Below are positions 1 to 34,900 of a stretch of DNA of 41,548 nt, in pieces. Each line of letters starts with the position of its first letter. Position 1 is the first letter of the stretch. The position numbers and the translations under genes are program-made. The stretch comes from a virus (taxonomy: Duplodnaviria; Caudoviricetes), in IMG/VR virus record IMGVR_UViG_3300008116_000184, positions 1 to 41,548 of that record. One strand, given 5' to 3'. The notes under the pieces are model-generated. The model was given only the letters and a program-made list of their open reading frames with translations. It made no database searches and had not been told where the DNA came from.

Positions 1-1941
1 TAAATATGAAGAGTTGTAGTTTACTAATTTATTAGTTCCATTCACTTGAAAGATTGCTGTTCCAAGTAAAGTAGTACCTCCAATAGTAGCAGATGATAAT
101 GCAGTTAATGAACTACTAACTCTTGCTGTTCCAGTTACATCTAACGTGCTTGCAGGCGTAGCCGTTCCAACACCCAACCTACTATTAGTATTATCCCAAA
201 AGAACCCTGTTCCTGAAGCTCCAAAAAGTACGTCACCTGTAGTAGTTTCAATAGCTCTATGTATAGTTCCAGTTAAACTTGTAATTGTAGGATTATAATA
301 GAAACCTCTAACTGTACCCGTGTATGCAGCTGTGTTATTTATTGTAGGGTTTATATTCAGCATTGAGAAGTTTCTACCCGTTCCTGTGGTATTTTGTACT
401 ACAAAAGGTATACTTAACAAATCATTACCTACAGTATCTGAAGCTGTCCCATTAATACTTACTCTACGACCACCCCCACCACAGTTAAAATTAAATACTC
501 CAAACGATGTTGGAGTGTTAAACTCAAGAGAAGAACTAGTTGCACTAATATTTCCTGTTGCAGCAACTCCATTAAAGTATATTGTAGATAATCTAACCGT
601 TCCATTAACATCGAGCTTGTAACCATTATCTGTTGTTGTGCCTATTAAGACGTTGCCTGTTGGTACAAGTGTTAATGTTTGACTATTAGAAATTAAACGT
701 ATGCTTGTGCTTACTCCTTGCGCTGTTAATGTGTGTACATTACCCGCCTCACTTACTGTAAGCCCGCGTAAAACACAAACACTTGAAACATTTAAATCAC
801 CTGTTACATCTAAGGTTCTTGAAGGCGAAGCGTTACCAATACCCAATCTATTGTTTGTATTATTCCAAAAGAAGTTAGCACTCTCCTGCAATACATTGCC
901 TGTACCCTCAAAGAGTATACGGCCTACTGTACCACCTGTTATAGTAGTAGTACCTACTGTTAAGCCTGTTGCAAGTGTTTTATTCTTCCATAGTGATGTT
1001 GCTGACTCATATTGCAATACTTGATTATCTGCAGGAGAACTGATATACACATTATGAAGTTCATCAAGCTCCCAACCATTCATGATCTTTACGTATATCT
1101 TTCCATGAATAGCATGTGAATACTCAACATAACCCATGACAACGATGTGTCCTGTGGCTCCTGTTGGCTTGATATTTGTCAAGGCTCCGGGAGTGGTAGG
1201 AGAAAGATAGAGAACATCTCCGTCAACCCAAGTTTCACCTTGAAGACTTCCTGTTGTGTTAATCTCCTCTAAGTTACCAACGGTCATGATGAAACCCTCC
1301 TGATTGGTAGCAATCGTTTCGGTTACAAGACCTATCGTGTCGGCACTATTGTTATCATTATCTGCTTGAGCAAAAGCTACAGCAAGTCTCTGTCCTTGTG
1401 CACCGCTAATTCTTACAGCCTGATAGGCCGCCTTTGTTAGCGTGGTATTTGGGGTAACTTTATTTACAACACGAGCAACAAGGTCTACTCCGTTCTTTAA
1501 TATAACTGAGCCACCTTTAAGAGTTGTTTGAGAGCTACCTATTGTATCATTCCACTGTGTTGTACCTACAGCTGCTGTTCCTGTTGGAGAGGTGTCTAGA
1601 GTTAACTGACCTGCCTTCAACTCATACTCCCCTAAGTTTACATTACCTGTTGCCCCTATATAAGGGACATACCCACTTCCACTTGCAGAGATAGTTGTTA
1701 TCCCATCTTTGTCTGTAGTAATTGTTATCCCGGTACCCCCTAAGAGCAGGTCTGAGATATATTTAAAGCTAAATGTCTTTGGACGATTAATGTTAGATAG
1801 AGATACTAGGACTTGGTTGTCTCTAACATTATCAACCCTATCTCTACTGCCCCCAGTTTGGTCAAAATCAGCAAGTTGCCTTAAACTGATGTCAACTTTC
1901 TTTGGAGCTGCAGTAAGTTTATTAGGGTTGTAAGTATCCAT
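1..1941 (-). CDS. Tail fibre / receptor-binding-like structural protein (3'-truncated by window edge; missing from ORF track)
   Basis: ATG at 1941 overlaps the upstream TAA (TAATG). The parts I translated are open and in frame to base 1 (MDTYNPNKLTAAPKK...YVPYIGATGNVNLGEY...GWELDELHNV...TAIFQVNGTNKLVNYNSSYL). Gly/Thr-rich with repeated units FFWNNTNNRLGIGNASPSRTLDVTG, GNVLIGTTTDNGYKLDVNG and FFWDNTNSRLGVGTATPASTLDVLG. Confidence 0.8.
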   Translation of the reverse strand, partial: MDTYNPNKLTAAPKKVDISLRQLADFDQTGGSRDRVDNVRDNQVLVSLSNINRPKTFSFKYISDLLLGGTGITITTDKDGITTISASGSGYVPYIGATGNVNLGEYELKAGQLTLDTSPTGTAAVGTTQWNDTIGSSQTTLKGGSVILKNGVDLVARVVNKVTPNTTLTKAAYQAVRISGAQGQRLAVAFAQADNDNNSADTIGLVTETIATNQEGFIMTVGNLEEINTTGSLQGETWVDGDVLYLSPTTPGALTNIKPTGATGHIVVMGYVEYSHAIHGKIYVKIMNGWELDELHNVYISSPADNQVLQYESATSLWKNKTLATGLTVGTTTITGGTVGRILFEGTGNVLQESANFFWNNTNNRLGIGNASPSRTLDVTGDLNVSSVCVLRGLTVSEAGNVHTLTAQGVSTSIRLISNSQTLTLVPTGNVLIGTTTDNGYKLDVNGTVRLSTIYFNGVAATGNISATSSSLEFNTPTSFGVFNFNCGGGGRRVSINGTASDTVGNDLLSIPFVVQNTTGTGRNFSMLNINPTINNTAAYTGTVRGFYYNPTITSLTGTIHRAIETTTGDVLFGASGTGFFWDNTNSRLGVGTATPASTLDVTGTARVSSSLTALSSATIGGTTLLGTAIFQVNGTNKLVNYNSSYL

Positions 1942-2171
1942 TAGTTAAGTTTAGTTCTAGCCTGTATATACAAATGTGACTTCTCTTGCTCTGCAGCCAT
2001 TACAGCCATTATCCCTCGAAGCTCTTCATAGGTAAATTGAATAATCAAGTCATCGTCAGCATTTAGTACTTGGATAACATTCTCATCAATATACACTAGA
2101 GCTTGCTCGGCCTCCTCTTCATTCTTAGTGAAAGGTGGTTGATAAATTCCAGTTTTGATGTAAGTAGGCAT
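1941..2171 (-). CDS. Hypothetical protein
   Basis: 76-aa ORF coupled to the fibre gene and preceded by TATCTTTG (2190-2197). Confidence 0.7.
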   Translation of the reverse strand: MPTYIKTGIYQPPFTKNEEEAEQALVYIDENVIQVLNADDDLIIQFTYEELRGIMAVMAAEQEKSHLYIQARTKLN

Positions 2172-2189
2172 TTGTCCTCAATTTGAAAT

Positions 2190-2197
2190 CAAAGATA
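2190..2197 (-). promoter_or_regulatory. Bacteroidota-type -7 promoter element (TATCTTTG)
   Basis: Matches TAnnTTTG, 18 nt upstream of the ATG at 2171. Confidence 0.5.
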
Positions 2198-2199
2198 AT

Positions 2200-2455
2200 C
2201 AAATTCTTAGACATAGTTATCCCCTTGGTGATTTTTGTGTTTAAAATTGACCTTCAGATTACTGCCGTCTTTAGCCTTCGGAGGAACATTTCTGTCAGCC
2301 TATAGTTTTAACCCTCCCCAGTATCCTATATCAATTCAATTTTTGCAACTATTGGGGACAACTTTTCTTAACTATTGTGATAAGAATAGAACCCAACTTC
2401 TGACCCCTTACTTTGGTTACCTCAGGGGTGATCGTGTAGGAACACGGTTGCAGAT
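2200..2455 (-). ncRNA. Candidate structured non-coding RNA or leader
   Basis: No convincing ORF; lies directly downstream of TATATTTG (2457-2464). Potential helices TGCAAC/GTTGCA, ACCCCT/AGGGGT, TCCCCA/TGGGGA. Confidence 0.3.
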
Positions 2456-2456
2456 G

Positions 2457-2464
2457 CAAATATA
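2457..2464 (-). promoter_or_regulatory. Bacteroidota-type -7 promoter element (TATATTTG)
   Basis: TAnnTTTG match just after the stop of 2474-2611. Confidence 0.5.
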
Positions 2465-2473
2465 ATAAGTTTG

Positions 2474-2611
2474 TTACCCTTGTCCTACTGAAAGTTTTCT
2501 ATAGTTTTTTGAACTTTTCAACTTTGAGTGTTTGGTCTTAGCATGGACTCCAGGTCTTTTGATTCTAGGTTTCGGATTAAAAGTGCTAGATGTTTGTTTT
2601 ACTTTGGCCAT
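2474..2611 (-). CDS. Small highly basic protein (45 aa; not in ORF track)
   Basis: MAKVKQTSSTFNPKPRIKRPGVHAKTKHSKLKSSKNYRKLSVGQG*; Lys/Arg-rich, possibly nucleic-acid binding; packs tightly behind the upstream gene. Confidence 0.7.
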   Translation of the reverse strand: MAKVKQTSSTFNPKPRIKRPGVHAKTKHSKLKSSKNYRKLSVGQG

Positions 2612-2617
2612 CTTATC

Positions 2618-2773
2618 TTAGTGCTTTTCTAATGTAATTCTAAATGAGTAGTTGTACAAATATATACTTAAGTACAATTCCCACCACAATTTATTTTCTG
2701 GACGTACGAATTTGAAGTCAATACCGATTCTATTGGTTAGCTTCATCTTTCTTTTTGTTGCTCTTAGTTTCAT
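2618..2773 (-). CDS. Small hypothetical protein
   Basis: MKLRATKRKMKLTNRIGIDFKF...; ATG start chosen downstream of the previous stop; fills the gap between neighbours. Confidence 0.5.
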   Translation of the reverse strand: MKLRATKRKMKLTNRIGIDFKFVRPENKLWWELYLSIYLYNYSFRITLEKH

Positions 2774-2784
2774 TGCTTTAAATT

Positions 2785-2937
2785 TTAGCTGCCACAGTAT
2801 AGACAATCTTCATTATCGTCGTCATAATATCCATTGATGATTTTCTCCATCTCGGCATTAATCTCTTCGTCTGTCCAGTCAGGGTTCTTCATCTTAACTT
2901 GGACTCTTAAAAATTGGTATTGTTCTAGGCTGTGCAT
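2785..2937 (-). CDS. Small acidic protein with C-terminal CxxC (…DDDNEDCLYCGS)
   Basis: Likely start ATG 2937 (MHSLEQYQF...), 7 nt after TATATTTG at 2945-2952. Confidence 0.65.
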   Translation of the reverse strand: MHSLEQYQFLRVQVKMKNPDWTDEEINAEMEKIINGYYDDDNEDCLYCGS

Positions 2938-2944
2938 TTCGTAA

Positions 2945-2974
2945 CAAATATACGTAAAAATTGTTACAGCCAAA
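2945..2974 (-). promoter_or_regulatory. Bacteroidota-type promoter (TTTG -33 / TATATTTG -7) heading the leftward operon
   Basis: TTTG at 2974-2971, an 18-nt spacer, then TATATTTG at 2952-2945. Confidence 0.55.
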
Positions 2975-3213
2975 CTCTGTAATAAAACACTGCCAAACTC
3001 GGAAGTCTGCCGAATTGTTTAACATGCATTTACATATAGAATTAACGATCTGCCTAATATAGCATGCAAAAGCATATAAGATGGTTAGAATTTGTAACCG
3101 ACTGGAAAAAAATTTTTAGGGGGAAATTTTTTGAGAGTGAGACCCTAAGTATTCAAAGACCCCGGCTAAGTTCTGTGCTTCGAAATACCTCGGACACATA
3201 AAAATTTACCAAA

Positions 3214-3441
3214 ATGGCAAAAGCAAAAACACCTGCACCAACTGTCGTTGGAAACCTTATGATTAACAAAGTTTGGATTTCCGACGACAAAGCCAAAAAT
3301 CCAGGGGCTATCACATGGATGAAGATGGAATTGACACCTGATGGAGAAGTTCTTAACCAGGAATTCCTGTTACATTTAAGAGTTGAAGACGCTGATTATG
3401 CTAACACTCTTACTTGGCTTAAAGCCATTGGTCGTCTCTGA
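3214..3441 (+). CDS. Hypothetical early protein
   Basis: 75-aa ORF with A-rich leader (ACCAAAATG), followed by a perfect hairpin. Confidence 0.75.
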   Translation: MAKAKTPAPTVVGNLMINKVWISDDKAKNPGAITWMKMELTPDGEVLNQEFLLHLRVEDADYANTLTWLKAIGRL

Positions 3442-3454
3442 TGAGACGACCTTT
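3430..3454 (+). terminator. Hairpin over stop codon (possible terminator or processing stem)
   Basis: GGTCGTCTC-TGAT-GAGACGACC, a perfect 9-bp stem, followed by TTT. Confidence 0.45.
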
Positions 3455-3461
3455 AGCCATT

Positions 3462-3527
3462 GGGGTGTTGAGAGAATAATCATCACGATGATAAGTGACT
3501 GATTGCCAGGACTCTCACACCCCTTTT
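3462..3527 (+). other. Structured intergenic stem-loop ending in U-tract
   Basis: GGGGTGTTGAGAG ... CTCTCACACCCC-TTTT. Confidence 0.45.
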
Positions 3528-3583
3528 AAGGTTATTTGATTGATACCTTCAAATCAATCTATCAAATTGTATAACACATTGTC

Positions 3584-3766
3584 ATGAAATACTTTCTATT
3601 GACGATAATAATCATTGCTATGCTTGACAGCTTTGCATTGCTTTATTTCTGTGTAACATTACTAGAACCATCAGCATATGTATTAACATTCGTATCGTTT
3701 GTTAGTGCATTCACAATATGGTTATTAGTATTCCACATCAAGGAATTAAGAGCCGGATCACGATAA
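3584..3766 (+). CDS. Small membrane protein (2 predicted TM segments)
   Basis: 60 aa with two hydrophobic stretches and a basic tail. Confidence 0.65.
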   Translation: MKYFLLTIIIIAMLDSFALLYFCVTLLEPSAYVLTFVSFVSAFTIWLLVFHIKELRAGSR

Positions 3767-3930
3767 CATGTGAACCAAAGGGTTTAACTGTACCCATAAT
3801 AAACAGTTAATTTATATTCTTAAAGTATTAGCATTTGAACAAGAGATGAGAAATTATACAAATGCACACAACCAACAGCATTGAGATCTGATTTGTCGAT
3901 ACAAGTCTTTCGATTGATATGTTGTTGGTT

Positions 3931-4024
3931 TGCTAATGCACCATAACTTACTTCCCAAGGGTGGGCAGTTGTATGTCAGTTTACTGTAGCAGAATACAGT
4001 CTTACAACTGAGTGCAGAGGGGCA
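3931..4024 (+). ncRNA. Twister-type self-cleaving ribozyme, copy 1 (type P1, extended P5)
   Basis: P1 UGC/GCA; UAA cleavage loop (U3934^A3935); P2 UGCAC/GUGCA; P4 CUUAC/GUGGG; loop UUCCCAAGG; P5 CAGUUGUA/UACAACUG; GA then GGG pairing with loop CCC. Confidence 0.75.
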
Positions 4025-4025
4025 C

Positions 4026-4126
4026 AGCAGTTGTAGTATATGCCGAGTTAGATAGATTTAGTAATCTATACTATACGTAGGGTGGCCACCTAGAATCAAC
4101 GTTCAGCAGGTAATACTACAATTGTT
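4026..4126 (+). ncRNA. Structured RNA domain between tandem ribozymes
   Basis: 14-bp closing helix AGCAGUUGUAGUAU/AUACUACAAUUGUU with internal hairpins (AUAGAUU-UAGU-AAUCUAU; ACGU/ACGU). Confidence 0.5.
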
Positions 4127-4274
4127 TGTATTAATGCATCATTCCAACTTCACAAGGGTTGGCAGTTGTAAAAAATCATCTACTATACAGTACACAAGTA
4201 ATAGTTGACCAGGCTTAAAGCTGGCACTGTATAACACAACCTGTAGAGGGTACAACTGAATGCAGAGTGGTACA
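4127..4274 (+). ncRNA. Twister-type self-cleaving ribozyme, copy 2
   Basis: P1 UGUAU/GUACA; U4132^A4133; P2 UGCAU/AUGCA; P4 CCAAC/GUUGG; loop UUCACAAGG; P5 CAGUUGUA/UACAACUG with an 80-nt nested insert; loop CAC pairs with GUG after GA. Confidence 0.8.
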
Positions 4275-4305
4275 TAATCAAATCATTAACTAACATTTAT
4301 TAACT

Positions 4306-4860
4306 ATGAATCTAGAACAATTTTTACAGAAGTACCCTAATGTGAGTGTAACCGATTTTATGCAAGCAGCATTTAATATCGTTAATGCAATCGAAGAAGC
4401 TCGTGAAGAAATTGCTGAAATAAATAGCAGAGATGAGCAAGCACTCGAACGGTTGCGTCGTAAGATGGATGATAATTCTGACGAAGAATATCAACAATCT
4501 TTTGATGCAATTAATTGGCCATCAGATGACCATGAGTATGAATCATTTAATGACTATGAATCATTTAATAGTGATGCTGATGAACAATATGTTACAGCAT
4601 CTACATCATACAATGCAAATGAAACATTCTACTTCATGAGTGATGAATATGGAGTACATGGAGGTCATGAACTAGGATGCTCAATGGCTGAACGTTGGGG
4701 TAATGTACTTTGGAATGTTCCTAGTAGAATAGACAGAAACATTGAGGATGAATTTCCCAATCACGATGTCAAACTATCTAGAAGCTATCGTATAGAACCA
4801 GACAAAGAACACCCTTGGGCAGTAGAAAAAAGAGTCTATAGGGTAACAAAGAGACAATAG
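4306..4860 (+). CDS. Acidic hypothetical early protein
   Basis: 184-aa ORF 31 nt after ribozyme 2; contains an 18-nt-period duplication (YESFND-YESFNS, 4537-4569). Confidence 0.8.
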   Translation: MNLEQFLQKYPNVSVTDFMQAAFNIVNAIEEAREEIAEINSRDEQALERLRRKMDDNSDEEYQQSFDAINWPSDDHEYESFNDYESFNSDADEQYVTASTSYNANETFYFMSDEYGVHGGHELGCSMAERWGNVLWNVPSRIDRNIEDEFPNHDVKLSRSYRIEPDKEHPWAVEKRVYRVTKRQ

Positions 4861-4936
4861 AAAGGACGTGATATTCGTCGTATTCCTAGGCATGAAGACA
4901 AACTGCCTTATACTTTACTAAATCTAAATAAACAGT

Positions 4937-5314
4937 ATGAAAACATTTACTTATCTAAAACGGGTTGAAATAGAAACAACTATTGAAGTTCCCGTAATCA
5001 CCTTTGTTGCTGAAAAGGTGCGTGTATCAACAGGTGACTCATCATGGTTTGAAATGGGTTATGTACCAAGATTTAACGGACTCACATCATGTGAATACGG
5101 TAAAGAAATGTGTAACTATAATGCCATGTGGAAGATGCTTGAAAAATATGTAGCAGAAACATTTAGTAAAACTAAAGGTTACGGTGCAGGTTATGGTTCA
5201 ATAGACTATCATGTCTATGCAGGTAAGGACATAGATATGCCCGAACTACCTAAGATTCCAAGAGAATGGAATGATGACCATGCTGACCTTGTTGCAATGT
5301 TCAAAGGTCTATAA
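4937..5314 (+). CDS. Hypothetical protein
   Basis: 125-aa ORF with A-rich leader. Confidence 0.8.
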   Translation: MKTFTYLKRVEIETTIEVPVITFVAEKVRVSTGDSSWFEMGYVPRFNGLTSCEYGKEMCNYNAMWKMLEKYVAETFSKTKGYGAGYGSIDYHVYAGKDIDMPELPKIPREWNDDHADLVAMFKGL

Positions 5315-5333
5315 GAGCACAAATTAATTATAT

Positions 5334-5369
5334 GGAAGCATCACAGGGTTTATAACTCTGTGATCTTCC
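5334..5369 (+). other. Long intergenic hairpin
   Basis: GGAAG(C)ATCACAGGGT-TTATA-ACTCTGTGATCTTCC, followed by a TAAATTTG promoter-like element. Confidence 0.5.
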
Positions 5370-5407
5370 GACTAAATTTGGATTTACATAAATCAACATA
5401 TAAAATC

Positions 5408-5986
5408 ATGAGTTACAACACTCCAAATTCTGGATCATTGACTGGGTTGTCAATGAATCAGACCTTGCTCGTGTCTGCTAGGAAAGTTGCAGGCCAAAAA
5501 TTACAGTTAGAATTTGCTGAGATCTTGGAAAAAGGATCTGCTCCAGTAAATGTTCTAGCGATGTTCAACCAATCAGACAATCGTTTCTCTCAAGGAGGAG
5601 CTCGTCGTGCTTGGATGACAGTAGAAGCAATTGATGCATCAAAACTATTAGGTGTTGATCTATCAGACTCTGCTTCTTGGGGTGTTGATTCATTAGGTCG
5701 TGAGATCTTAATGCTTAACATTCTAAACCCTCAAGTATTAATTGGTGACGAACTAATTAACTTGAAGGTTGAGGTAGTGGAAACTACTGAAGGTACAGAA
5801 TGGCAAAAGTCTAACTTAGAGACTTCTGCTAAGCGTAAAGGTAAAGACGGTGATTTTATCATGCACAATGGTAAGCACATCTTTGCTAACACACGTATTG
5901 CTCTTAACAAAGCTAACCACGTGTTCTTAACTGCTGATGCTAGTGTGGCTAACACTGTATCTGCATCTGATAGTGTTTTCAACTAA
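5408..5986 (+). CDS. Hypothetical protein
   Basis: Likely true start ATG 5408 (MSYNTPNSG...); the track's 5360 start lies inside a hairpin. Codon choice resembles highly expressed genes (many T-ending codons). Confidence 0.85.
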   Translation: MSYNTPNSGSLTGLSMNQTLLVSARKVAGQKLQLEFAEILEKGSAPVNVLAMFNQSDNRFSQGGARRAWMTVEAIDASKLLGVDLSDSASWGVDSLGREILMLNILNPQVLIGDELINLKVEVVETTEGTEWQKSNLETSAKRKGKDGDFIMHNGKHIFANTRIALNKANHVFLTADASVANTVSASDSVFN

Positions 5987-6005
5987 ACATTATCAAAAAA
6001 CCTAC

Positions 6006-6041
6006 AATAGGGTGTCAAGGTTAATTCCTTGACATTCTATT
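6006..6041 (+). terminator. Long hairpin (terminator-like) abutting ribozyme 3
   Basis: AATAGGGTGTCAAGG-TTAATT-CCTTGACATTCTATT (15 bp with G-U pairs), then TGTATT. Confidence 0.5.
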
Positions 6042-6113
6042 TGTATTAATGCACCACAACTTGATTCCAAAGGTCAAGCAAGATTTTAATCTTGAGTGCA
6101 GATGGGTACAAAT
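6039..6113 (+). ncRNA. Twister-type self-cleaving ribozyme, copy 3 (compact)
   Basis: P1 AUUUGUAU/GUACAAAU; U6047^A6048; P2 UGCAC/GUGCA; P4 CUUGA/UCAAG; loop UUCCAAAGG; P5 CAAGAU/AUCUUG; loop CCA pairs with UGG after GA. Confidence 0.82.
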
Positions 6114-6138
6114 AATTATTTACCAAACCTTAATTGTT

Positions 6139-6432
6139 ATGATCAATTTATCAAAAAACTCAACACCAAACTATTGTTTACCAAACTATTCAGTAGAAAA
6201 ACAACCTGTTAAAAAACCAATTATACGTAAACAATTTAAACAATTGTTTCGTGGATTAGCAGAATTAGCTGCTGTATTCACAGCTGTATTTATGGCTCCA
6301 GCATTACTTGCTGCGTTTGTTAACTTCGACATTAGTGTGTACTTCTCGTGCATACATAGTGCTACTTATTGTGTATTACTTACCATGCTTGGTATCATTG
6401 TGTCCATCTTTTATACATCGATGCACCAATGA
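6139..6432 (+). CDS. Membrane protein (2 TM)
   Basis: Likely start ATG 6139 (MINLSKNST...); the track's start at 6049 falls inside ribozyme 3. Confidence 0.75.
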   Translation: MINLSKNSTPNYCLPNYSVEKQPVKKPIIRKQFKQLFRGLAELAAVFTAVFMAPALLAAFVNFDISVYFSCIHSATYCVLLTMLGIIVSIFYTSMHQ

Positions 6433-6620
6433 GAAAGCTTAAGTACCATATTCAACTTCATTGGTATTGGGAGGAACGAGTATTCGTATTCGTTCCAACC
6501 ATTGCCTTTGGGGAATGCTTACCTGAATACGATGATTCGTATTGGTTTGCTTTTATGTTTGGTCCTATGAGATTAGGATTTAAACGAGTTGCTAATAATA
6601 TAGCACAAGAAGATAAATAA
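6429..6620 (+). CDS. Small hypothetical protein
   Basis: ATGA overlap with the upstream stop (MRKLKYHIQLHWYWEE...). Confidence 0.7.
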   Translation: MRKLKYHIQLHWYWEERVFVFVPTIAFGECLPEYDDSYWFAFMFGPMRLGFKRVANNIAQEDK

Positions 6621-6631
6621 TCTTCTCTTTT

Positions 6632-6681
6632 GCAAACAATGCTTGTAAGGTTTCTGGTAAATTCCTTATGAGCTTGTTTGC
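6632..6681 (+). other. Long intergenic hairpin
   Basis: GCAAACAA(T)GCTTGTAAGG ... CCTTATGAGCTTGTTTGC, followed by TTCTTT. Confidence 0.5.
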
Positions 6682-6739
6682 TTCTTTAATACCTTGTAAG
6701 AAATTAATCACGAACTATATTTACAAAAACTAATCAGTT

Positions 6740-6904
6740 ATGAAAAAATCAAATGCTTATCTTATTCTTTATTTTGCAACAATCATTGCAATAGCTTGTA
6801 TGACATCTTGTAGTAGCTCTCAACATGGGTACAATTACAAGTCTCATGCTAAGCATCGTAATACAGGTCCTAGTAAATGCTATAAAAAGCATAATAAGTG
6901 GTGA
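6740..6904 (+). CDS. Small lipoprotein (54 aa; not in ORF track)
   Basis: MKKSNAYLILYFATIIAIACMTSCSSSQHGYNYKSHAKHRNTGPSKCYKKHNKW*; basic N-terminus, hydrophobic core, MTSC lipobox. Confidence 0.7.
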   Translation: MKKSNAYLILYFATIIAIACMTSCSSSQHGYNYKSHAKHRNTGPSKCYKKHNKW

Positions 6905-6917
6905 AAACTAATCAGCT

Positions 6918-7124
6918 ATGGGTTATATGAAGTGGGTAAAAGGCCTGATGGATACAGGTCGACACACAATTCTTCGTGAGAAATACGACGAAGCAATTGA
7001 GTGTAAGTTCGAGAGAATAGAATTTGACAATTCTAATCTTGATGTTACATTTGTAGGTCACGTTCTTGACTTTATTGACAAGAATGATGATGCTCATACA
7101 GCAACAAGACATGAAAAGCTCTGA
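6918..7124 (+). CDS. Small hypothetical protein
   Basis: 68 aa; overlaps the polymerase start. Confidence 0.7.
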   Translation: MGYMKWVKGLMDTGRHTILREKYDEAIECKFERIEFDNSNLDVTFVGHVLDFIDKNDDAHTATRHEKL

Positions 7125-8967
7125 TTCTATCTATGTAGTTAATGGTAAAGATAATCTCTTTGAATACCCATTGAATTCATGTACAATGCAAGAATGTGTA
7201 GACTACTTACGATCAATTGATTTGATTGGGGTAGATACCGAGACCGAAGGTTTCGACTTCACAGGAAAGAAATTGTTAATGATTCAATGTGGTGACAAAG
7301 GGAAGCAGTTTATCATTGATTACAGAGTAACTAGTAAGCAAGAGATAGCGTTATTGAAATCTGTTTTAGAAGATGCTTCTAAAATTAAGATACTTCATAA
7401 TGCTAAATTTGATTACAAGTTCCTCAAGTTCTATTGTAATATCAGCCTCAATAATGTGTACGACACATTTTTGGTGGAAAAGATATTACACTGTGGTAAG
7501 AAAGAAGTACGTAACAGATTCGTAGACCTTGGTAGTAATCCATTCACTGTTGATCAAATGGTGTATGGTGCTAAAGATGTAGAATATCTAATCGATATCT
7601 ATCACAAACAACAGCCTGATATCGAGCTTAAGAGACTACGTAGTGTAGTTAGGCTTGAGAATGAAGCTGTTGTAGTTTTCTCTGAGATTGAGTATGAGGG
7701 ATTAATCCTTGATACTGAAGCTTGGCAAAAACTTGCTGTCAGAAACAAAGCCATGTCTATTCAGCTTGAGAAAGAGCTGGACAAGTCATTGGTTGCTGAT
7801 GAAAGGTTTACGAAATATAAGGCACAAAAGCAGTTGGATATGTTTACTGCTGTAGAGGATTTGAAAGAGTCTACAGTTAAGTGGTCGTCCCCAACTCAAG
7901 TGTTAAAGATTTTCAGAACGTTAGTACCTGAGCTTGAGAATGCTAACGGTAAGAAGCTTGCACCTTATAGGTTTAAGCATACTCTTATCGATGAGTATAT
8001 CAAGTATAAGGAGAAGGATAAGTTATCATCTGCATTTGGAGATAACTTCTACACATTCCTTAGTGCTGACAAGAAAGTTAGAACGAATTTCACACAAATC
8101 CTGGACACAGGTCGTGTTAGTAGTTCTGAGCCCAATATGCAACAAATCCCTGCTACTAACGAGTACAGAAATTGCTTTGTGGCTCCTGAAGGTTATGTGT
8201 TTGTATCTAGTGACTATTCATCACAAGAACTAAATGTAATAGCATATGGTTCTCAAGACCCTGTGTTTCTAAAAGCTCTCGAAAATAATGAAGACTTGCA
8301 CTCAGTATGTGCAGAGTTAGTATTCGGAGAAGTATGGAAGAATGCAGCAGAAGAGGATTGTGCCTATTACAAAACGAAAGAGAAGTGTGACTGTAAAGCT
8401 CACAAGAAATTAAGAACTCAAGTTAAGACAATCAATTTCGGATTGGCTTATGGGATGGGACCTAAGAAGTTATCTGAAACAATCAATTGCTCTACAAAAG
8501 AAGCAAAGGATTTGATTACTAAGTACTTCAAAGCTTTCCCTAAGATTGAGGCATTCTTAAATGGTCTTGGTGAGTTTGGAAAGAAACACGGTTACATTGA
8601 GACTTTCCCTCCATTCAGAAGGAAGAGGTGGTTTAACAGTTGGACTCCAAAGATGTACAGTGATAAAGATAGCTTTATGGAACTGGGATCAATTGAGAGA
8701 GCATCTAAGAACACACCGATTCAAGGCAGTTCAGCTGATATGACTAAGCTTGCATTGGTTCTCATTTATAGGCATATTAAAAAGTACGACTTACCTGTTA
8801 AGATAATCATGACCGTTCATGATCAGATTGACACAGTTTGTCCAAGAGAATATGCTGAAGAATGGAAACAGAGAATGACTGAGCTTATGGAACAAGCAGC
8901 TAACACTGTTATTAAGAATGGATTGTTGAAAGCAGAAACATCAATCACTAATGTTTGGAGTAAATAA
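7111..8967 (+). CDS. polA: Family A DNA polymerase with 3'-5' exonuclease, no 5'-3' exonuclease domain
   Basis: ExoI DTETEG, ExoII HNAKFD, ExoIII YGAKD; TGRVSSSEPNMQQIP; motif A DYSSQEL; motif B RTQVKTINFGLAYG; NTPIQGSSAD; motif C VHDQI. Likely start ATG 7111. Confidence 0.96.
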   Translation: MKSSDSIYVVNGKDNLFEYPLNSCTMQECVDYLRSIDLIGVDTETEGFDFTGKKLLMIQCGDKGKQFIIDYRVTSKQEIALLKSVLEDASKIKILHNAKFDYKFLKFYCNISLNNVYDTFLVEKILHCGKKEVRNRFVDLGSNPFTVDQMVYGAKDVEYLIDIYHKQQPDIELKRLRSVVRLENEAVVVFSEIEYEGLILDTEAWQKLAVRNKAMSIQLEKELDKSLVADERFTKYKAQKQLDMFTAVEDLKESTVKWSSPTQVLKIFRTLVPELENANGKKLAPYRFKHTLIDEYIKYKEKDKLSSAFGDNFYTFLSADKKVRTNFTQILDTGRVSSSEPNMQQIPATNEYRNCFVAPEGYVFVSSDYSSQELNVIAYGSQDPVFLKALENNEDLHSVCAELVFGEVWKNAAEEDCAYYKTKEKCDCKAHKKLRTQVKTINFGLAYGMGPKKLSETINCSTKEAKDLITKYFKAFPKIEAFLNGLGEFGKKHGYIETFPPFRRKRWFNSWTPKMYSDKDSFMELGSIERASKNTPIQGSSADMTKLALVLIYRHIKKYDLPVKIIMTVHDQIDTVCPREYAEEWKQRMTELMEQAANTVIKNGLLKAETSITNVWSK

Positions 8968-28937: not shown

Positions 28938-31900
28938 TTATATTGAGCAAGACATATTTCCAGACTCAATTGGTAATTTTCCTCTGTCTAACAAGTATGT
29001 GCTGTTTCTCTCTATGTTGTTTTTAATCTGTGGAATTACTTCTTCGTTTGCTATTCTCATGTAGTTTAGCCCGTAAAGTTTAGTAGACCCCTTGGTTGTG
29101 AAAGTTCCTGTAAGCATTCCATACTGTGTCATAATAGATCCATCTCCAGCTGTTACTGGTCCAATTTTACCAAACACAGCACTTGTACCAACTTTTTGAT
29201 TTCTAACTATTATAAAGTTTTCAGTACCACTATCTAAAACAGTTTCTGTTGTTGACTTAAGTATATCACTGTTTACCCTTCTAACCAAGTTGCTCCCTCC
29301 AGCTCTCATTTTTCCAAATGCAGCCATGTAATTAACCATGTCTTGTGAATCAAAGTACTGGGACTGTCTAGCTTTAAATGATTCTTGTCTGAAGAAATCT
29401 AAGATGCTTATTCTGTTTTGAACTTCTATTCCAGGTTCTGATGGCCCTTGCTCAACCTTCACAGGAGTTGTGAAAAACTCTAAAGGAACAATATCAGCAT
29501 ATGAGCTAGCACTTTGTCTAAATCCATTTACAAAGAAGCTGTGCATTGCTAACTTTTCGGCAAAATCTTTTACTTCTTTTATACCTTCATTAACTTTTGG
29601 ATCAGTGTAGTTACCTTCACTATCCATTGTTTTATCTCCTGGTACATAGAATTGTGGGTTATACAATAGGTTGTATAATCCATCTGTATAAGATTGCTTT
29701 TCCCCTGCAGAAGTTTTAAATGTATTGTCAAACTTAATTCCATAGTACTTAGCTTCTGTATCTGTATCAGGCTCTAAGTTGGCTATAAATGGGTTTGTAT
29801 TTAATGCAGGGTACTTCGTCTTTAATCCTTGAAGTCTTGTATAGATGTTATCATTTGCTTTGTTGTACAAGCTTGACATGTTGTTCATAAGGGAAGCAAA
29901 TGGAGAACCAGGCTTCATAAGCATCATGAACATCAAGTTGTAATCAATCAACTGATGCATTTCAGGGGTTAACTCTTCAGTACTTACATTTCCTAATAGT
30001 TCTTTCTTGAAGACTTTGAATGATTCAGATAGTCTAGTAGGGAAGAACACACCTGCAAACTCAAGACCGTTTCTCAATAGATTCTCGTAACCTCTTTCCA
30101 TTCCATAGATAGATTTCTCTCCAATGAATTGGTCAGTAACGTTATCCATAGAAGTTGGTTCGAAGAATATTGGAGTCTTGAGAGAATCTTCACTCTGATC
30201 GAATGCATCAGCTCTATCTAAGTAAGACTGAATAGAACCTATTCGTCCCAATCCATCCATTGAATCTGGGGTTACTCTCTTTCCTAGTTTCATAAGAGCT
30301 GACCCAGCTTCGTAGAACTTCATAAAGTTAGCAAGCATCTTAAGTTGCTCATCTACATTTCTGTTCTCTTTGCTTAAGTTTTCTAACTCTGCAACATCCA
30401 TGTTGAATGTACCAGGCTTATTTAAATTTAAATAACCATTAGGGTCTTTGAGCTTTTTTCTAAAGGTCTTATAAGCTTGTTTTAAATCTCGTAAGTTTCC
30501 TGCTTTTGCAGTCTCAAAGTAATCTGTAAATTCTTTAATCAATGGTTGATTTAAGAACAAAGAACAGAATCTTGAAGAATACTCTGGGAAGAATCCTGAG
30601 AATAAAACTCTGATACGAGATGTTAAAACTGTATCGTTAAGTTCGTATTGTACAGGAAGTTTTGCAGCATCCACGGCAGCTGATAAAAATAGAGACATAC
30701 TTTTATCTGTTGGGTAAGATCTGCTTGTTTCATCAAATGGATTTTCAAAAGCAGTTTTTATGTAGTCTCTATATTCTACTCCGTTGATTTTAATAGCATA
30801 ATCGTTGTGCATTCTAACACTGCCGTGTTGTAACACGTTACGTGCAGCTAATGCATTTGCATAGATACCACGGAGTTTATTTCCAAGAGTACTACGACGA
30901 GCTGTAACAGCTTCTGTCTTGTAGTCACTCCAGTCTAATTCTTTTGCAAGTTCTGGGGACTTAGATTTAATCTCGTCCACAACAGTATTTAATGTAGTAT
31001 CATCAAGTGGAGTAAACACTTCTTTGAAGTGAGCAGGATTTGAGTACACTGCCTCCATCAAATCTAATATCACATTGTTAATCTGTTGATTAGACAACTT
31101 CGATAAGTTCTTTGACTTAAGTACACTTGCATAGTCTACAGATACTTTCTCTAGTTGCTTAGTCTCTTTATTAATTCTAACCTCTGGGAATAAGAGATTT
31201 AATTTATCGACGTCAAAGTCAGATCCCATCAACTTAACAAGTTGTCCTGGTACAACCACTGCTTTTGCATAATTATTTGGTAAGATTTTAGCAATCTTAA
31301 GCATAACTACAGAAGCTTTATCCTGATTAGGGATACGGTAACCTACAATTCTTCTAAGTTCTTCTGGGATAGAGTCTAAAGATTGTCCTGGCTGTATTCC
31401 AAACTTACGAGCTACGTCCTCACGGATCATAACTTCTGCATGGATTACCCTCTTACCATCTTCAGATATTTGCAAGAACTTCAAAGCACCACTTCCATCA
31501 GCTTCTGATCCTCCTAACTGTGTAACTTGAACTGCTTCAAACCCTTTAACTTTTTGTTTGAACACATCATTGTTTATTACAGACATTATGATGGACTCAT
31601 ACTTCTTGTTGTATAGAGGTATGTCAAGTGGAGCCACGAATCTAGGAGATCCATCGTTTTCAAATACGATATCTAAAGCTCTCTCATAGTTAGAGTGAAG
31701 CTCTTTTGTTCTAGCCTGCTTGAGTACTTTCTCTCTTACAGTTTTTAATACTACTAGTTTTGCTTCATTTATCTTGTTGATATCATTGCTTTCAGCAGCT
31801 GCATAAAGTTTAGTCAATCCAAACTCGTCTTCAACTTTCTTTGTATCTCTAGCAAGTTTCTCTTCTACAGCAGCATGGTAAAGGTCTTTTAATTCTTTAC

Positions 31901-34900
31901 CTGAAATTTCTGTATCTAGAATTCCAGGAGAGATTTGATATATGGTATCATCCTCAACATTGGCCACCATATTTTTTTTAATCTGACGATTGAGAGCATT
32001 TGTTGGATCTTCTTTTGCAGAAGGGATAAATTGTGGAAATCTTAATCCTGATGAAGAGTGAGTGTTAACCCCTGCTTCTCCAAGCAGTCCTAGTCTACCT
32101 GTATGTTTGTAAACGTTTCTCTTAGATAGTTTTTTACCAGATACAAAGTTTACTACATGTACTGGCTTTAATCCTTGATACTCTTCTACAGCTTCCATTC
32201 TACGACGTAAGTCTTCTAAGAATGGGAAGTTTGTAGTATATGATTTTAATAATACAGAGTAAGAGTTCTTTTGAGAGTCTATAGATAATGTTCTTCCAAC
32301 ATTGTTGTAAGACATTTTTTCGTAGTAACCTTTATGCCCCAATGTTGGGACTGGGTCTCCAACTTTTTTACCGTCAGGAACAAATCCTGGTTGGTATACA
32401 AACTCTCCTGTTACTTTATATGCTTTGTATGCTTCTTCATCTTCTCTCTCCCACTTTCCTAAACCTTGCATAATACTTCTATGCATATCCAAACTAATGA
32501 AAGCTTGAGCATCTGTAGAATCATATTTGCCTGGTCTAAATGCATCTGCAATAATTTTTGCTTCTGTGCTTGAGACACCACTTTTAACTAACCCATTATA
32601 GATATTTGTAGCCTGATCATTTGCTTCTTTTTCTTGTTCAGCATTTAGATTTAACTTAATATCTCTCATCACAATCTCATTGAACTCCTTCATCATTCCA
32701 TAAGATTCACTGATATCTCCAACCATAACCATTTTGGTTCCAGGAGTAGTCAAGTGGCCCATACGTTTGTAGAAGTCTTCTTGATTTTTATGTAGAGCTC
32801 TATTTCCACGGAATAGTTTTACTATTTCGTTTCTCATAATAGCATTTTCTACTACAAATCCTTTTAGCAATCCTTTTAAATCTACTCCGATAGCTCCACT
32901 CATTCCAATCTCTCCTACCTTCCCTGCTTTAGTCAACTCTGTTTCTAGAGCTAAAGCTTGTGCAGAAAAGAATTCAAGCATCTCATTAGTCATTCTATCT
33001 AAACGAGCATCAAATAGTTTCTGAGATTCTGCATCCATAGACTTGCCTACATAGTCCATAACCTTGTCACTCATCTGAGTAACTCCGTTCATTCTTGTAC
33101 CAGTTACATTCTCTGTTAAAGCTTCATCTGTTACTATGTATTTACCATCTTGGTTCTTAGCTCTGAATTGGAAGAAAGATTCTTTGAATGCATTACCAAG
33201 GTATTCTCCATTCTCTACAATTCTTGTAGGGTCTCCAGGAGCTGTGTGGTAACCTTCTTCTAAATCTGCATAATCTACTCTTCCATTTAAAGCTCCTCTT
33301 ACAACATCCTTAGCTTGTTTTACTCTCACTAAGTCTTGCACGATCTGAGCTTTAATCAAATCTTTATGTGACATGAATTGCTTAGAGAAAGCATTTTTGC
33401 TAATTCTAGGAACCTTTACAAATGTGAATTTGTCACGGTCTGATTGAACAGGGACAGCAATGTATGTATACTCACTATCTGTTCTGTTGTTAATGAAAGC
33501 ATTTATAAGAGTAACCATTGTATCGGCCTCTGAGAAGTCTTCATATGCAAGAGCTTCTTCATACTCTGATCCCATCTTGCTTGCATCAAAGTCAAATACC
33601 CCAAACTCTTCTAAGAATTTATTATCCATTAAATGTTTAAACAAGACACTTGTAAACTCAGGTCTTCCTTTTACATTGATGAATTCGTCTTTAAGATATT
33701 CTTTTAGTAACTGAGCAGAATTTTCAGATCTCTCTTTCAATATACTTACAATCTGAGCCATGTGTGTCTCAGTGTTTGTACCGTAGATTGCTTTTCCCTT
33801 TCCATTGACAAAGCTGATACCTGCAATAGGGATAGTTGATTTGAAAAGCTTTGCAAAATCTATAGCTGCAGATTTACGAGCAGTTATGAAATCTAAGTTT
33901 CTGTCATTCTTTACCCCTACAAACTCTTCAAGTTCTGATCCTTTCCCTCTAGTGAAATCTCCTACTTGACGGATGAATGATAGTACTTGGGTTTTAATAG
34001 TTCTCAAAGAATCTACCCCAGTCTTACCATCTATTCCATTATCAGCAATTGATTGTAATATTTTTTGTGTGTCTCCTACATTGGTATTGCTACCTACATA
34101 TAGACCTAATTCAAACATAGCCTGTGCAAGATGTTCTACAACAGGATTAACCTGTCCGTCTATACTAGCTACATTAACTACTCCAAATTTTGGGAGAAGT
34201 TTCTCAGCTTCTTTCCAAGCTTTTGCAGCTGCAATTACCTTATTCTTGTTAGTAGTAAGAACTTCTACAACCGTCCCATCCTCTTTAGTAACAACATCCT
34301 TTTTGTACAAAGCCATTCCATCTACTTCAGAAACAAGTGTATTCTTCCACTTCTCTGCAATAGCTGTTGGAATGTCTTTACGATTAGGATTGAAGACTTC
34401 AACGTAGTTTACTTTGTTATCTACCTTTTGCTTTAACATTACAAAGTCAGTATTGCTAAGTGCAAATGCAGAGAATATCATAGCCTTTTCAGAGTCTGAT
34501 AATTCGTTTAAAAAGTTAAGGACATTTCTTAAGTGAGGTCGTAGCTTTACTTCTTGCTTAAGAGCATTAACCATTGCAGTGTAAGTTTGCTTACCACTGA
34601 ATATGTTCAGCAATTCTTTGAATACAACATCTCTGTTTAAATATGTTTTAACCCCTAAGCTATTATATTCATTTGACATAATAGTAGATAGAAGTTCTCT
34701 TACTCTTGCTGTAAGTCTTTTTGCAGGACTAATCTCCATACTACTTTGTCCGTATATTTTCCCTACTGCTTCATCGATGATTGCAAATTCATCATTCAAT
34801 TCATCTAATTCATCCTCAGCCTCTGAAGGAGTTTCTAGGTCAGTATCGTATTTAAACTTAGAGTCAATGTATATTCCAGCATCTGTAAGTCTGTTTACCA

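What the first reader, a model, noticed from the sequence alone, without database searches (positions are those of the whole stretch)
3935..4132. Tandem ribozymes would excise a ~198-nt structured, circularisable RNA
Seen: copies 1 and 2 are only ~100 nt apart, and the spacer is one closed domain (14-bp helix 4026-4039/4113-4126, UGCC/GGUA, internal hairpins) with no ORF. Known: twister cleavage leaves 5'-OH and 2',3'-cyclic-phosphate ends, which are RtcB ligase substrates. Inference: double cleavage releases a discrete 198-nt RNA, potentially circular, presenting the spacer domain as cargo, for example a decoy or antitoxin mimic against host defence. A discrete product would explain why two cut sites are kept so close together.
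Basis: inference. Interest (0 to 1): 0.8.

Follow-up and report, generated by a model that had tools for sequence, protein, structure and literature searches.

The report
Twister ribozymes flanking swappable phage RNA
Two predicted self-cutting RNAs in a crAss-like phage would release a 198-base piece carrying a small uncatalogued RNA motif that other phages keep with one cutter or none beside it, so the piece is likely a trimmed linear RNA rather than the circular decoy first proposed.

Summary
The anatomy is real. Two twister-type folds predict cuts at 3934|3935 and 4132|4133 (198 nt), with a 14-bp-closed, ORF-free spacer between. They belong to a large phage twister variant family that Rfam misses; its 3-bp pseudoknot is complementary in 119 of 122 copies, with three sequence keys. 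The scan has noted this family on other DNA. Copy 1's 3-bp P1 is typical, and P1 is dispensable in twisters, so a double cut is likely. The spacer is a conserved, uncatalogued motif, but it does not need two ribozymes: relatives carry it with no twister nearby, with one downstream only, or inside a twister's P5 arm, and one lacks the whole 198 nt. Only 12 of 94 family twisters have a close second cut (141-544 nt). A ligated circle would rebuild copy 1's complete cut site and likely re-cut. No RtcB was found in 38 related phage records. Eight RNA runs showed no 4132-3935 joint, but they held only relatives' contigs, so that is no real test. Best reading: ribozyme trimming of an early transcript into linear RNA modules that recombination shuffles between phages. 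A stable circle or decoy role remains untested (about 0.1).

The parts
3864..3933 (+). Closed stem-loop domain ending at the first cut site; a further shuffled module
   Evidence: z -4.62; held by relatives' contigs in runs X6, X7, X8 with other neighbours
3931..4024 (+). Twister-type ribozyme copy 1 (type P1 with P5 arm; T1 key CCC/GGG); predicted cut 3934|3935
   Evidence: descriptor; family covariation; no Rfam hit
3935..4132 (+). Predicted 198-nt double-cleavage product: copy 1 body, spacer motif, and the 5' P1 strand of copy 2
   Evidence: arithmetic on predicted cuts; not observed; one relative lacks exactly 198 nt here (X8 record 14)
4026..4126 (+). Spacer: uncatalogued conserved RNA motif closed by a 14-bp helix whose ends match the family's P5 stem; predicted three-way junction with a 10-nt palindrome at 4081-4090
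   Evidence: found in the P5 slot of a twister 3' half in X4 record 8
4127..4274 (+). Twister-type ribozyme copy 2 (T1 key CAC/GTG; about 96-nt P5 arm); predicted cut 4132|4133; lies 31 nt before ORF 4306
4306..4860 (+). 184-aa acidic ORF of unknown family, whose message would start with the copy 2 body
   Evidence: no Pfam or PHROG match
6039..6113 (+). Twister-type copy 3 (T1 key CCA/TGG, short P5, 8-9-bp P1); predicted cut 6047|6048

Best explanation
Two variant twister folds flank a conserved spacer motif and likely cut the phage's early transcript into separate linear RNAs, one of which would be a 198-nt piece made of the first ribozyme's body plus the spacer, whose closing helix is predicted to shield its 3' end. 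Inferred steps: (1) the virion RNA polymerase transcribes the region as one long early RNA; (2) each twister cuts as it is made, giving the upstream RNA a 3' end just behind a folded element and the downstream RNA a structured 5'-OH end; (3) the different T1 keys keep each 5' half with its own 3' half; (4) the close spacing arises because RNA modules bounded by the common P5-type helix and twister halves are swapped between phages by recombination, not because a circle is selected. The spacer motif likely works as a protein-binding or self-dimerising small RNA, whether or not it is excised.
For: Phage context: PolA, DnaB, Sak4, primase and rIIA/B genes, a DFDVD motif in the 2567-aa ORF, and best primase hits among gut phages named cr-number (33% identity). 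In crAss-like phi14:2, early long intergenic RNAs are abundant and persist (10.1101/2020.03.07.982082, passages). T1 is complementary in 119 of 122 copies with three keys. The spacer motif stands with no twister in L372 and L376, with one downstream only in L489, and in a twister's P5 slot in X4; copy 1 is replaced by 122 other letters in X7, and the whole 198 nt are absent in X8. 17 of 112 P5 inserts recur at 80% or more in twisters with unrelated flanks. Cuts follow GOLLD-type 3' ends in 6 of 137 cases and a recurrent pseudoknot-like motif in 14 of 137. The last 60 nt before a cut fold at z of -2 or lower in 39 of 124 cases, against 21 of 124 and 13 of 122 in two control windows.
Against: No cleavage was shown, and the family departs from the canonical twister in T2 and L4. 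Contigs in RNA run X8 span twister cut positions uncut (records 14 and 16), which may be DNA, uncut or re-joined RNA. The excess of structure before cuts is modest: 50 of 137 cuts had no such element within 45 nt, and pairing at -30 to -21 was below shuffles (0.26 vs 0.42). L027, and partly L023, repeat the window's layout with an unrelated interior, which fits selection for an excised unit. The divergent spacer copies fold no better than shuffles (z -0.21 and -0.10).
Confidence: 0.55

Rival explanations
1. The 198-nt piece is cut out and closed by a host ligase (RtcB type) into a stable circle that presents the spacer as a decoy or antitoxin mimic.
For: Ribozyme ends are RtcB substrates and work in E. 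coli (Tornado; PMC12628768, one passage). Tandem hammerheads give natural circles in plant retrozymes (PMC4918200, passages). The spacer helix brings the two ends close, and L027 has the same layout at 210 nt. A Bacteroides control genome has RtcB. RNA anti-CRISPRs can escape sequence searches (PMC13288109, passages).
Against: The circle would hold copy 1's whole core and a restored U-A site. P2 forms at 0.97 in the circular ensemble (pseudoknots not modelled; the nested twister fold lies 6.3 kcal/mol above the minimum), and P1 is dispensable, so re-cutting is expected; retrozyme circles instead block their ribozyme. RtcB is in 0 of 38 related records and an ATP-dependent RNA ligase in 2 of 38. 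The motif persists without two ribozymes. No antitoxin or CRISPR-repeat match.
Confidence: 0.12
2. Only the cut at copy 2 matters: it sets the 5' end of the mRNA for ORF 4306. The 198-nt piece is a short-lived by-product of an accidental module insertion.
For: X8 record 14 lacks the 198 nt and joins the upstream domain straight to a copy-2-like twister. L489 keeps the downstream twister but not copy 1. 82 of 94 twisters have no second cut within 600 nt, and many precede a start codon (seen, not counted). The spacer motif was absent from 48 of 48 other related records, most chosen for carrying twisters.
Against: Copy 1 keeps every core element. The spacer shows compensatory changes at 6 of 30 pairs across three lineages and turns up in RNA-library contigs of three runs (X2, X4, X7), so it is probably functional as RNA.
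Confidence: 0.2
3. These variants do not cleave, or copy 1 does not; they act as structural leaders, and no discrete product forms.
For: T2 is CC/GG or UC/GG rather than the conserved GC, the P4 closing pair varies, and L4 starts with UU in 122 of 122. RF03160 gives no match. An upstream P0 hairpin lowers cleavage (PMC11662667, passage), and copy 1 has one at 3864-3933. X8 contigs cross cut positions.
Against: The catalytic A after the cut, the G before T1 and both pseudoknots are kept throughout the family. P1, P2 and P4 imperfections and P5 arms are tolerated in a large test of natural twisters (PMC11662667, passages).
Confidence: 0.09
4. The 198-nt unit is a small selfish element that spreads through an RNA intermediate, as retrozymes do.
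For: The indel in X8 equals the cut-to-cut length, and modules move between unrelated flanks.
Against: Recombination between the repeated twister 5' halves gives the same indel. The spacer and the twister move independently of each other. Reverse transcriptase was not searched in relatives, and none was among the 26 window ORFs scanned.
Confidence: 0.04

Closest known systems
Twister ribozyme, type P1 with optional P5 (Rfam RF03160; reviewed in PMC5408937)
   Same: U|A cut site next to P1, P2, P4, two pseudoknots, G before the 3-bp pseudoknot, P5 between P4 and P2'.
   Different: T2 is CC or UC with GG; L4 has an extra U; the P4 closing pair varies; P5 is a 10-14-bp stem of conserved sequence with a large swappable insert; the Rfam model does not detect it; activity untested.
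Plant retrozymes (PMC4918200) and the synthetic Tornado system (PMC12628768)
   Same: Two self-cleaving ribozymes in tandem release an RNA with 5'-OH and 2',3'-cyclic phosphate ends.
   Different: Retrozyme circles are shown and fold the ribozyme into a blocked form; Tornado is engineered (that both cores stay outside its circle is recalled). Here the product keeps a whole core, no circle is shown, and the cargo does not depend on the pair.
Theta ribozymes of gut phages (PMC10879173, abstract)
   Same: A small phage ribozyme placed with its cut site right behind another RNA, proposed to mature its 3' end.
   Different: HDV-like fold next to tRNAs there; twister fold next to GOLLD-type ends, pseudoknot-like motifs, hairpins and this spacer motif here.
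Abundant early intergenic RNAs of crAss-like phage phi14:2 (10.1101/2020.03.07.982082)
   Same: Long non-coding stretches at the front of the early gene block of a crAss-like phage.
   Different: No sequence match of 3860-4290 to any of 50,697 annotated phage records; the function of the phi14:2 RNAs is undetermined and the passages read mention no ribozyme.
Phage decoy RNAs (rAcrVIA1, as described in PMC13288109; pseudo-ToxI recalled, not read)
   Same: Small structured phage RNA of accessory distribution.
   Different: No sequence or structure match was found, and no linked defence system was identified.

Membership tests
Twister ribozyme | Conserved A directly 3' of the cut (U|A), and G before the 3-bp pseudoknot | tested here: met
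   U3934-A3935 with G4017; U4132-A4133 with G4265
Twister ribozyme | Stems P1, P2, P4 in the canonical order | tested here: met
   P1 is 3 bp and 5 bp; P1 is dispensable per PMC5408937 and PMC11662667
Twister ribozyme | 3-bp pseudoknot T1 between L4 and L1 | tested here: met
   119 of 122 complementary; CCC/GGG 94, CAC/GTG 15, CCA/TGG 10; 3' triplet not constrained
Twister ribozyme | 2-bp pseudoknot T2 with conserved GC, and invariant G-C pair closing L4 | tested here: inconclusive
   Pairing is possible (CC/GG 99, UC/GG 23) but not with the canonical letters; closing pair C-G 93, A-U 13, U-A 12, G-C 3, U-G 1
Twister ribozyme | Match to Rfam twister models | tested here: not met
   0 hits at gathering score, at E up to 5 over 1-7200, and with RF03160 at E up to 10
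Twister ribozyme | Site-specific self-cleavage | not testable with these tools
   needs in vitro assay or raw reads
Ribozyme-released circular RNA (retrozyme or Tornado type) | Two cut sites in tandem on one strand | tested here: met
   predicted sites 198 nt apart
Ribozyme-released circular RNA (retrozyme or Tornado type) | Back-joined (circular) molecules | tested here: inconclusive
   no 4132-3935 joint in 8 of 8 runs, but all were contigs of relatives and none spanned the stretch
Ribozyme-released circular RNA (retrozyme or Tornado type) | Ribozyme absent from the circle or folded into a blocked form | tested here: inconclusive
   core is inside the circle; P2 0.97, P4 0.13, P5 0.27 in a pseudoknot-free circular model
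Ribozyme-released circular RNA (retrozyme or Tornado type) | A ligase for 5'-OH and cyclic-phosphate ends is available | tested here: inconclusive
   RtcB in 0 of 38 phage records (0 of 19 near-complete); host unknown
Type III antitoxin or CRISPR-repeat mimic | Likeness to known antitoxin repeats or CRISPR repeats | tested here: not met
   no such Rfam family at E up to 5 in the window or in three spacer-bearing loci; a purely structural mimic is not excluded

The most novel reading that the evidence does not exclude
crAss-like phages run an RNA cassette system: twister ribozymes with orthogonal pseudoknot keys cut out interchangeable small-RNA cargoes that share a common closing helix. This 198-nt unit is one of them, closed into a circle by host RtcB or dimerised through its palindromic loop, and acts as a decoy against host defence.
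Probability: 0.1. Interest if true: 0.85.

Novelty: new variant of a known kind. Interest (0 to 1): 0.47.

Why it matters
The role of self-cleaving ribozymes near phage genes is an open question (PMC6765202, passage). This locus gives a compact test case with defined cut sites and a defined 198-nt product. Its cargo RNA occurs naturally with two, one or no ribozymes, so the effect of cutting can be separated from the effect of the cargo. It also adds an uncatalogued phage RNA motif, and shows that RNA modules are swapped between phages in and out of a ribozyme arm. A natural ribozyme-made circle from a DNA phage would be new as far as five literature searches show, but nothing here demonstrates one.

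Tried and rejected
Rfam scans of the window found nothing relevant. A permuted type-P5 twister made of copy 1's 3' half and copy 2's 5' half was rejected, because its T1 would be CAC against GGG. A hammerhead on the minus strand of the spacer was rejected: two relatives read CUGAUGA there, but the window reads CUGCUGA and no copy has the GAAA junction. A junction pattern scan hit mostly unrelated DNA; only 4 of 120 loci held twisters, so L125-L244 were left out of all family counts. The covariance model found the motif only in the window among 100 sources and in 2 of 50 records, both training sequences. A sigma-70 promoter and terminator scan was at chance level (13 vs 15.6; 3 vs 2.2). blastn of 3860-4290 against annotated phages gave no match. 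RNA runs held at most 8% of the words; contigs cannot show ends, strand or level, so missing cover and the missing back-joint are not counted as evidence. Two X1 contigs stop about 11-12 nt downstream of the predicted cuts; this was not counted. A likeness of the P5 stem ends to Cas13b repeat ends is recalled from memory and untested.

Full report
Setting. The window is a single 41.5-kb virus record. It carries PolA, an SF2 helicase, DnaB, Sak4, primase, rIIA/B and UDG on the plus strand, and three giant ORFs on the minus strand. The 2567-aa ORF holds a DFDVD motif, the signature of crAss-like virion RNA polymerases (10.1101/2020.03.07.982082, abstract in listing and passages). The primase's best matches are gut phages named cr-number, at about 33% identity; 130 records matched, many of them Bacteroides and Flavobacterium phages. 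The finding lies near the front of the plus-strand block, in an ORF-free stretch (3767-4305). In phi14:2, long early intergenic RNAs are abundant, persistent and unexplained.

Observation. All coordinates check out. Predicted cuts at 3934|3935 and 4132|4133 give 198 nt, and a third copy cuts at 6047|6048. The 14-bp helix and the UGCC/GGUA extension are present. 4022-4132 folds at z -3.99. Rfam detects none of the copies. L001 is a twin record, identical over 3508-7406, and is not independent.

Are they twisters? Pattern scans with either half returned about 120 stretches each, with an estimated 340-460 in the viral collection. Of 117 distinct hits found with the 5' half alone, 88 completed the fold within 330 nt. 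The other 29 were not called; by eye most look like chance matches in coding DNA or are cut by contig ends. In a pooled set of 129 5' halves, 122 had the 3' anchor, and the triplet after it, which was not constrained, complemented the L4 triplet in 119: CCC/GGG 94, CAC/GTG 15, CCA/TGG 10. The window's three copies use the three different keys, which would stop halves from cross-pairing (inference). Departures from the canonical twister (PMC5408937, passages): T2 is CC or UC with GG, L4 starts with UU in 122 of 122, and the closing pair varies. P1 is 3 bp or shorter in 52 of 88. P1 is dispensable, and P5 arms are well tolerated, whereas an upstream P0 hairpin lowers cleavage (PMC11662667, passages). 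I put activity of both copies at about 0.8; it is not shown.

What the spacer is. Its closing helix has the same sequence as the family's P5 stem, which is within one mismatch of consensus on both strands in 63 of 88 and shows compensatory variants. Its interior is a motif in its own right. L489 carries a near-identical copy; L372 and L376 carry divergent ones. A three-way-junction structure that I drew by hand has 91.7% of cells paired and double-sided changes at 6 of 30 pairs; slid controls reach 23-49% and 1 pair. These are four sequences from three lineages, the automatic consensus recovered only part of the structure, and the two divergent copies fold no better than shuffles, so the interior fold is tentative. 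Both versions keep a perfect 10-nt palindrome with four changed pairs (window 4081-4090). This hints at dimerisation, but beyond the hairpin itself the coincidence is only about 1 in 16. No Rfam family matches. The motif is accessory: 0 of 48 other related records hold it.

Does it need two ribozymes? No. L372 and L376 have no twister in their loci, and two half-patterns find none in their whole records of 22 and 13 kb, which are fragments. L489 has a twister downstream only, and run X2 shows the same upstream end. In X4, a 130-nt contig joins 4118 to 4254, placing the motif in the P5 slot of a twister 3' half; the short side is 21 letters. In X7, 122 other letters stand in place of copy 1. 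In X8, one contig skips exactly 198 nt, 3932 to 4131. These contigs come from relatives, in libraries that may hold DNA. Across the family, 17 of 112 P5 inserts recur at 80% or more in twisters whose two flanks are unrelated; random pairs score 0.27. The region is a mosaic of swappable modules.

How common are close pairs? Of 138 distinct twisters, 94 had 750 nt of known sequence downstream, and 12 of these had a second cut within 600 nt. That count includes the window's own pair and one row (L041) with a degenerate first copy. Products run from 141 to 544 nt with unrelated spacers. L027 repeats the window's layout (210 nt, P5-type closing helix, matching hybrid P1), and L023 does so partly. 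This is the best evidence for a selected unit, but the same recombination would produce it.

What do the cuts follow? Of 137 cut sites, 6 directly follow a GOLLD-type 3' end (Rfam GOLLD match below gathering score at L055 787-1181, cut at 1191), 14 a recurrent pseudoknot-like motif, 5 a P5-type helix and 62 a hairpin of -8 kcal/mol or better (no control for that class); 50 show none within 45 nt. The last 60 nt fold at z of -2 or lower in 39 of 124, against 21 of 124 further upstream and 13 of 122 downstream. The enrichment is modest, and the position-wise pairing profile exceeds shuffles near the cut only in the last 10 nt. All three window cuts follow a strong helix. This resembles the 3'-end role proposed for theta ribozymes (PMC10879173, abstract). 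Hatchet, pistol and tRNA matches in neighbouring loci show that these are mixed RNA islands.

The circle. The chemistry is sound: ribozyme ends are ligated by E. coli RtcB (PMC12628768, one passage), and tandem hammerheads give circles in plants (PMC4918200, passages). But joining 4132 to 3935 rebuilds U-A in front of copy 1's full core. In a circular fold model P2 forms at 0.97, and the nested twister fold lies 6.3 kcal/mol above the minimum before pseudoknots are counted; this neither proves nor excludes a blocked state. Since P1 is dispensable, re-cutting is the default expectation. Retrozymes, by contrast, hold the ribozyme in a blocked conformation. RtcB was found in 0 of 38 related records, and an ATP-dependent RNA ligase in 2 of 38; a host enzyme remains possible. 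No back-joint was listed in 8 of 8 runs, but none covered the unit. Nothing points to a decoy role, although structural mimics can evade sequence search (PMC13288109, passages).

Verdict. The locus is a real pair of variant twisters around a real, uncatalogued RNA module. A linear 198-nt product is likely; a stable functional circle is unlikely on present evidence and untested. Earlier notes of this scan describe the same ribozyme family in other genomes. New here are the spacer motif, its four contexts, and the exact 198-nt indel. Five literature searches (listings only unless stated) showed no report of this family or of a ribozyme-made circle from a DNA phage; subscription journals and supplements, such as the original twister alignments, were not seen. 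Novelty: new variant of a known kind. Interest 0.47.

Noticed in passing
window 4855-4911: Conserved non-coding motif (hairpin, then a likely H-type pseudoknot ending in an AAAC loop and stem). Shared by L002, L003, L030, L050, L322, L372 and contigs in runs X5, X6, X8; in L002 and L050 it ends right at a twister cut. No Rfam match.
   Followed up: partly
L056 minus strand about 1282-1519; also L017, L021, L024, L028, L037, L043, L051, L062: Giant twister variants with two further stem-closed inserts between the 5' half and the T1 loop, with their own conserved linker motifs.
   Followed up: no
L055 787-1191; L103, L105, L113, L124, L335: Twister cut site about 10 nt behind the 3' end of a GOLLD-type RNA, suggesting ribozyme maturation of GOLLD.
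   Followed up: partly
window 3431-3452: Near-perfect inverted repeat over the stop codon of ORF 3214-3441, with CTGATGA in its centre.
   Followed up: no
window 3861-3875: Sequence resembling a decayed twister 5' half just before the upstream stem-loop domain.
   Followed up: no
window 4197-4217: Part of copy 2's P5 insert resembles, from memory only, the start of IscB-associated omega RNAs; no tool support. The insert occurs with other 3' flanks in runs X1 and X3.
   Followed up: no
L372 minus strand 1889-1829 and L376 minus strand 970-908: Another conserved stem-closed motif shared by the two twister-free records upstream of the spacer motif; L372 also holds a weak GOLLD match.
   Followed up: no
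window 28938-36641 (minus): The 2567-aa virion RNA polymerase-like ORF carries an N-terminal ART-PolyVal ADP-ribosyltransferase domain match (residues 89-211, E 2.5e-08).
   Followed up: no
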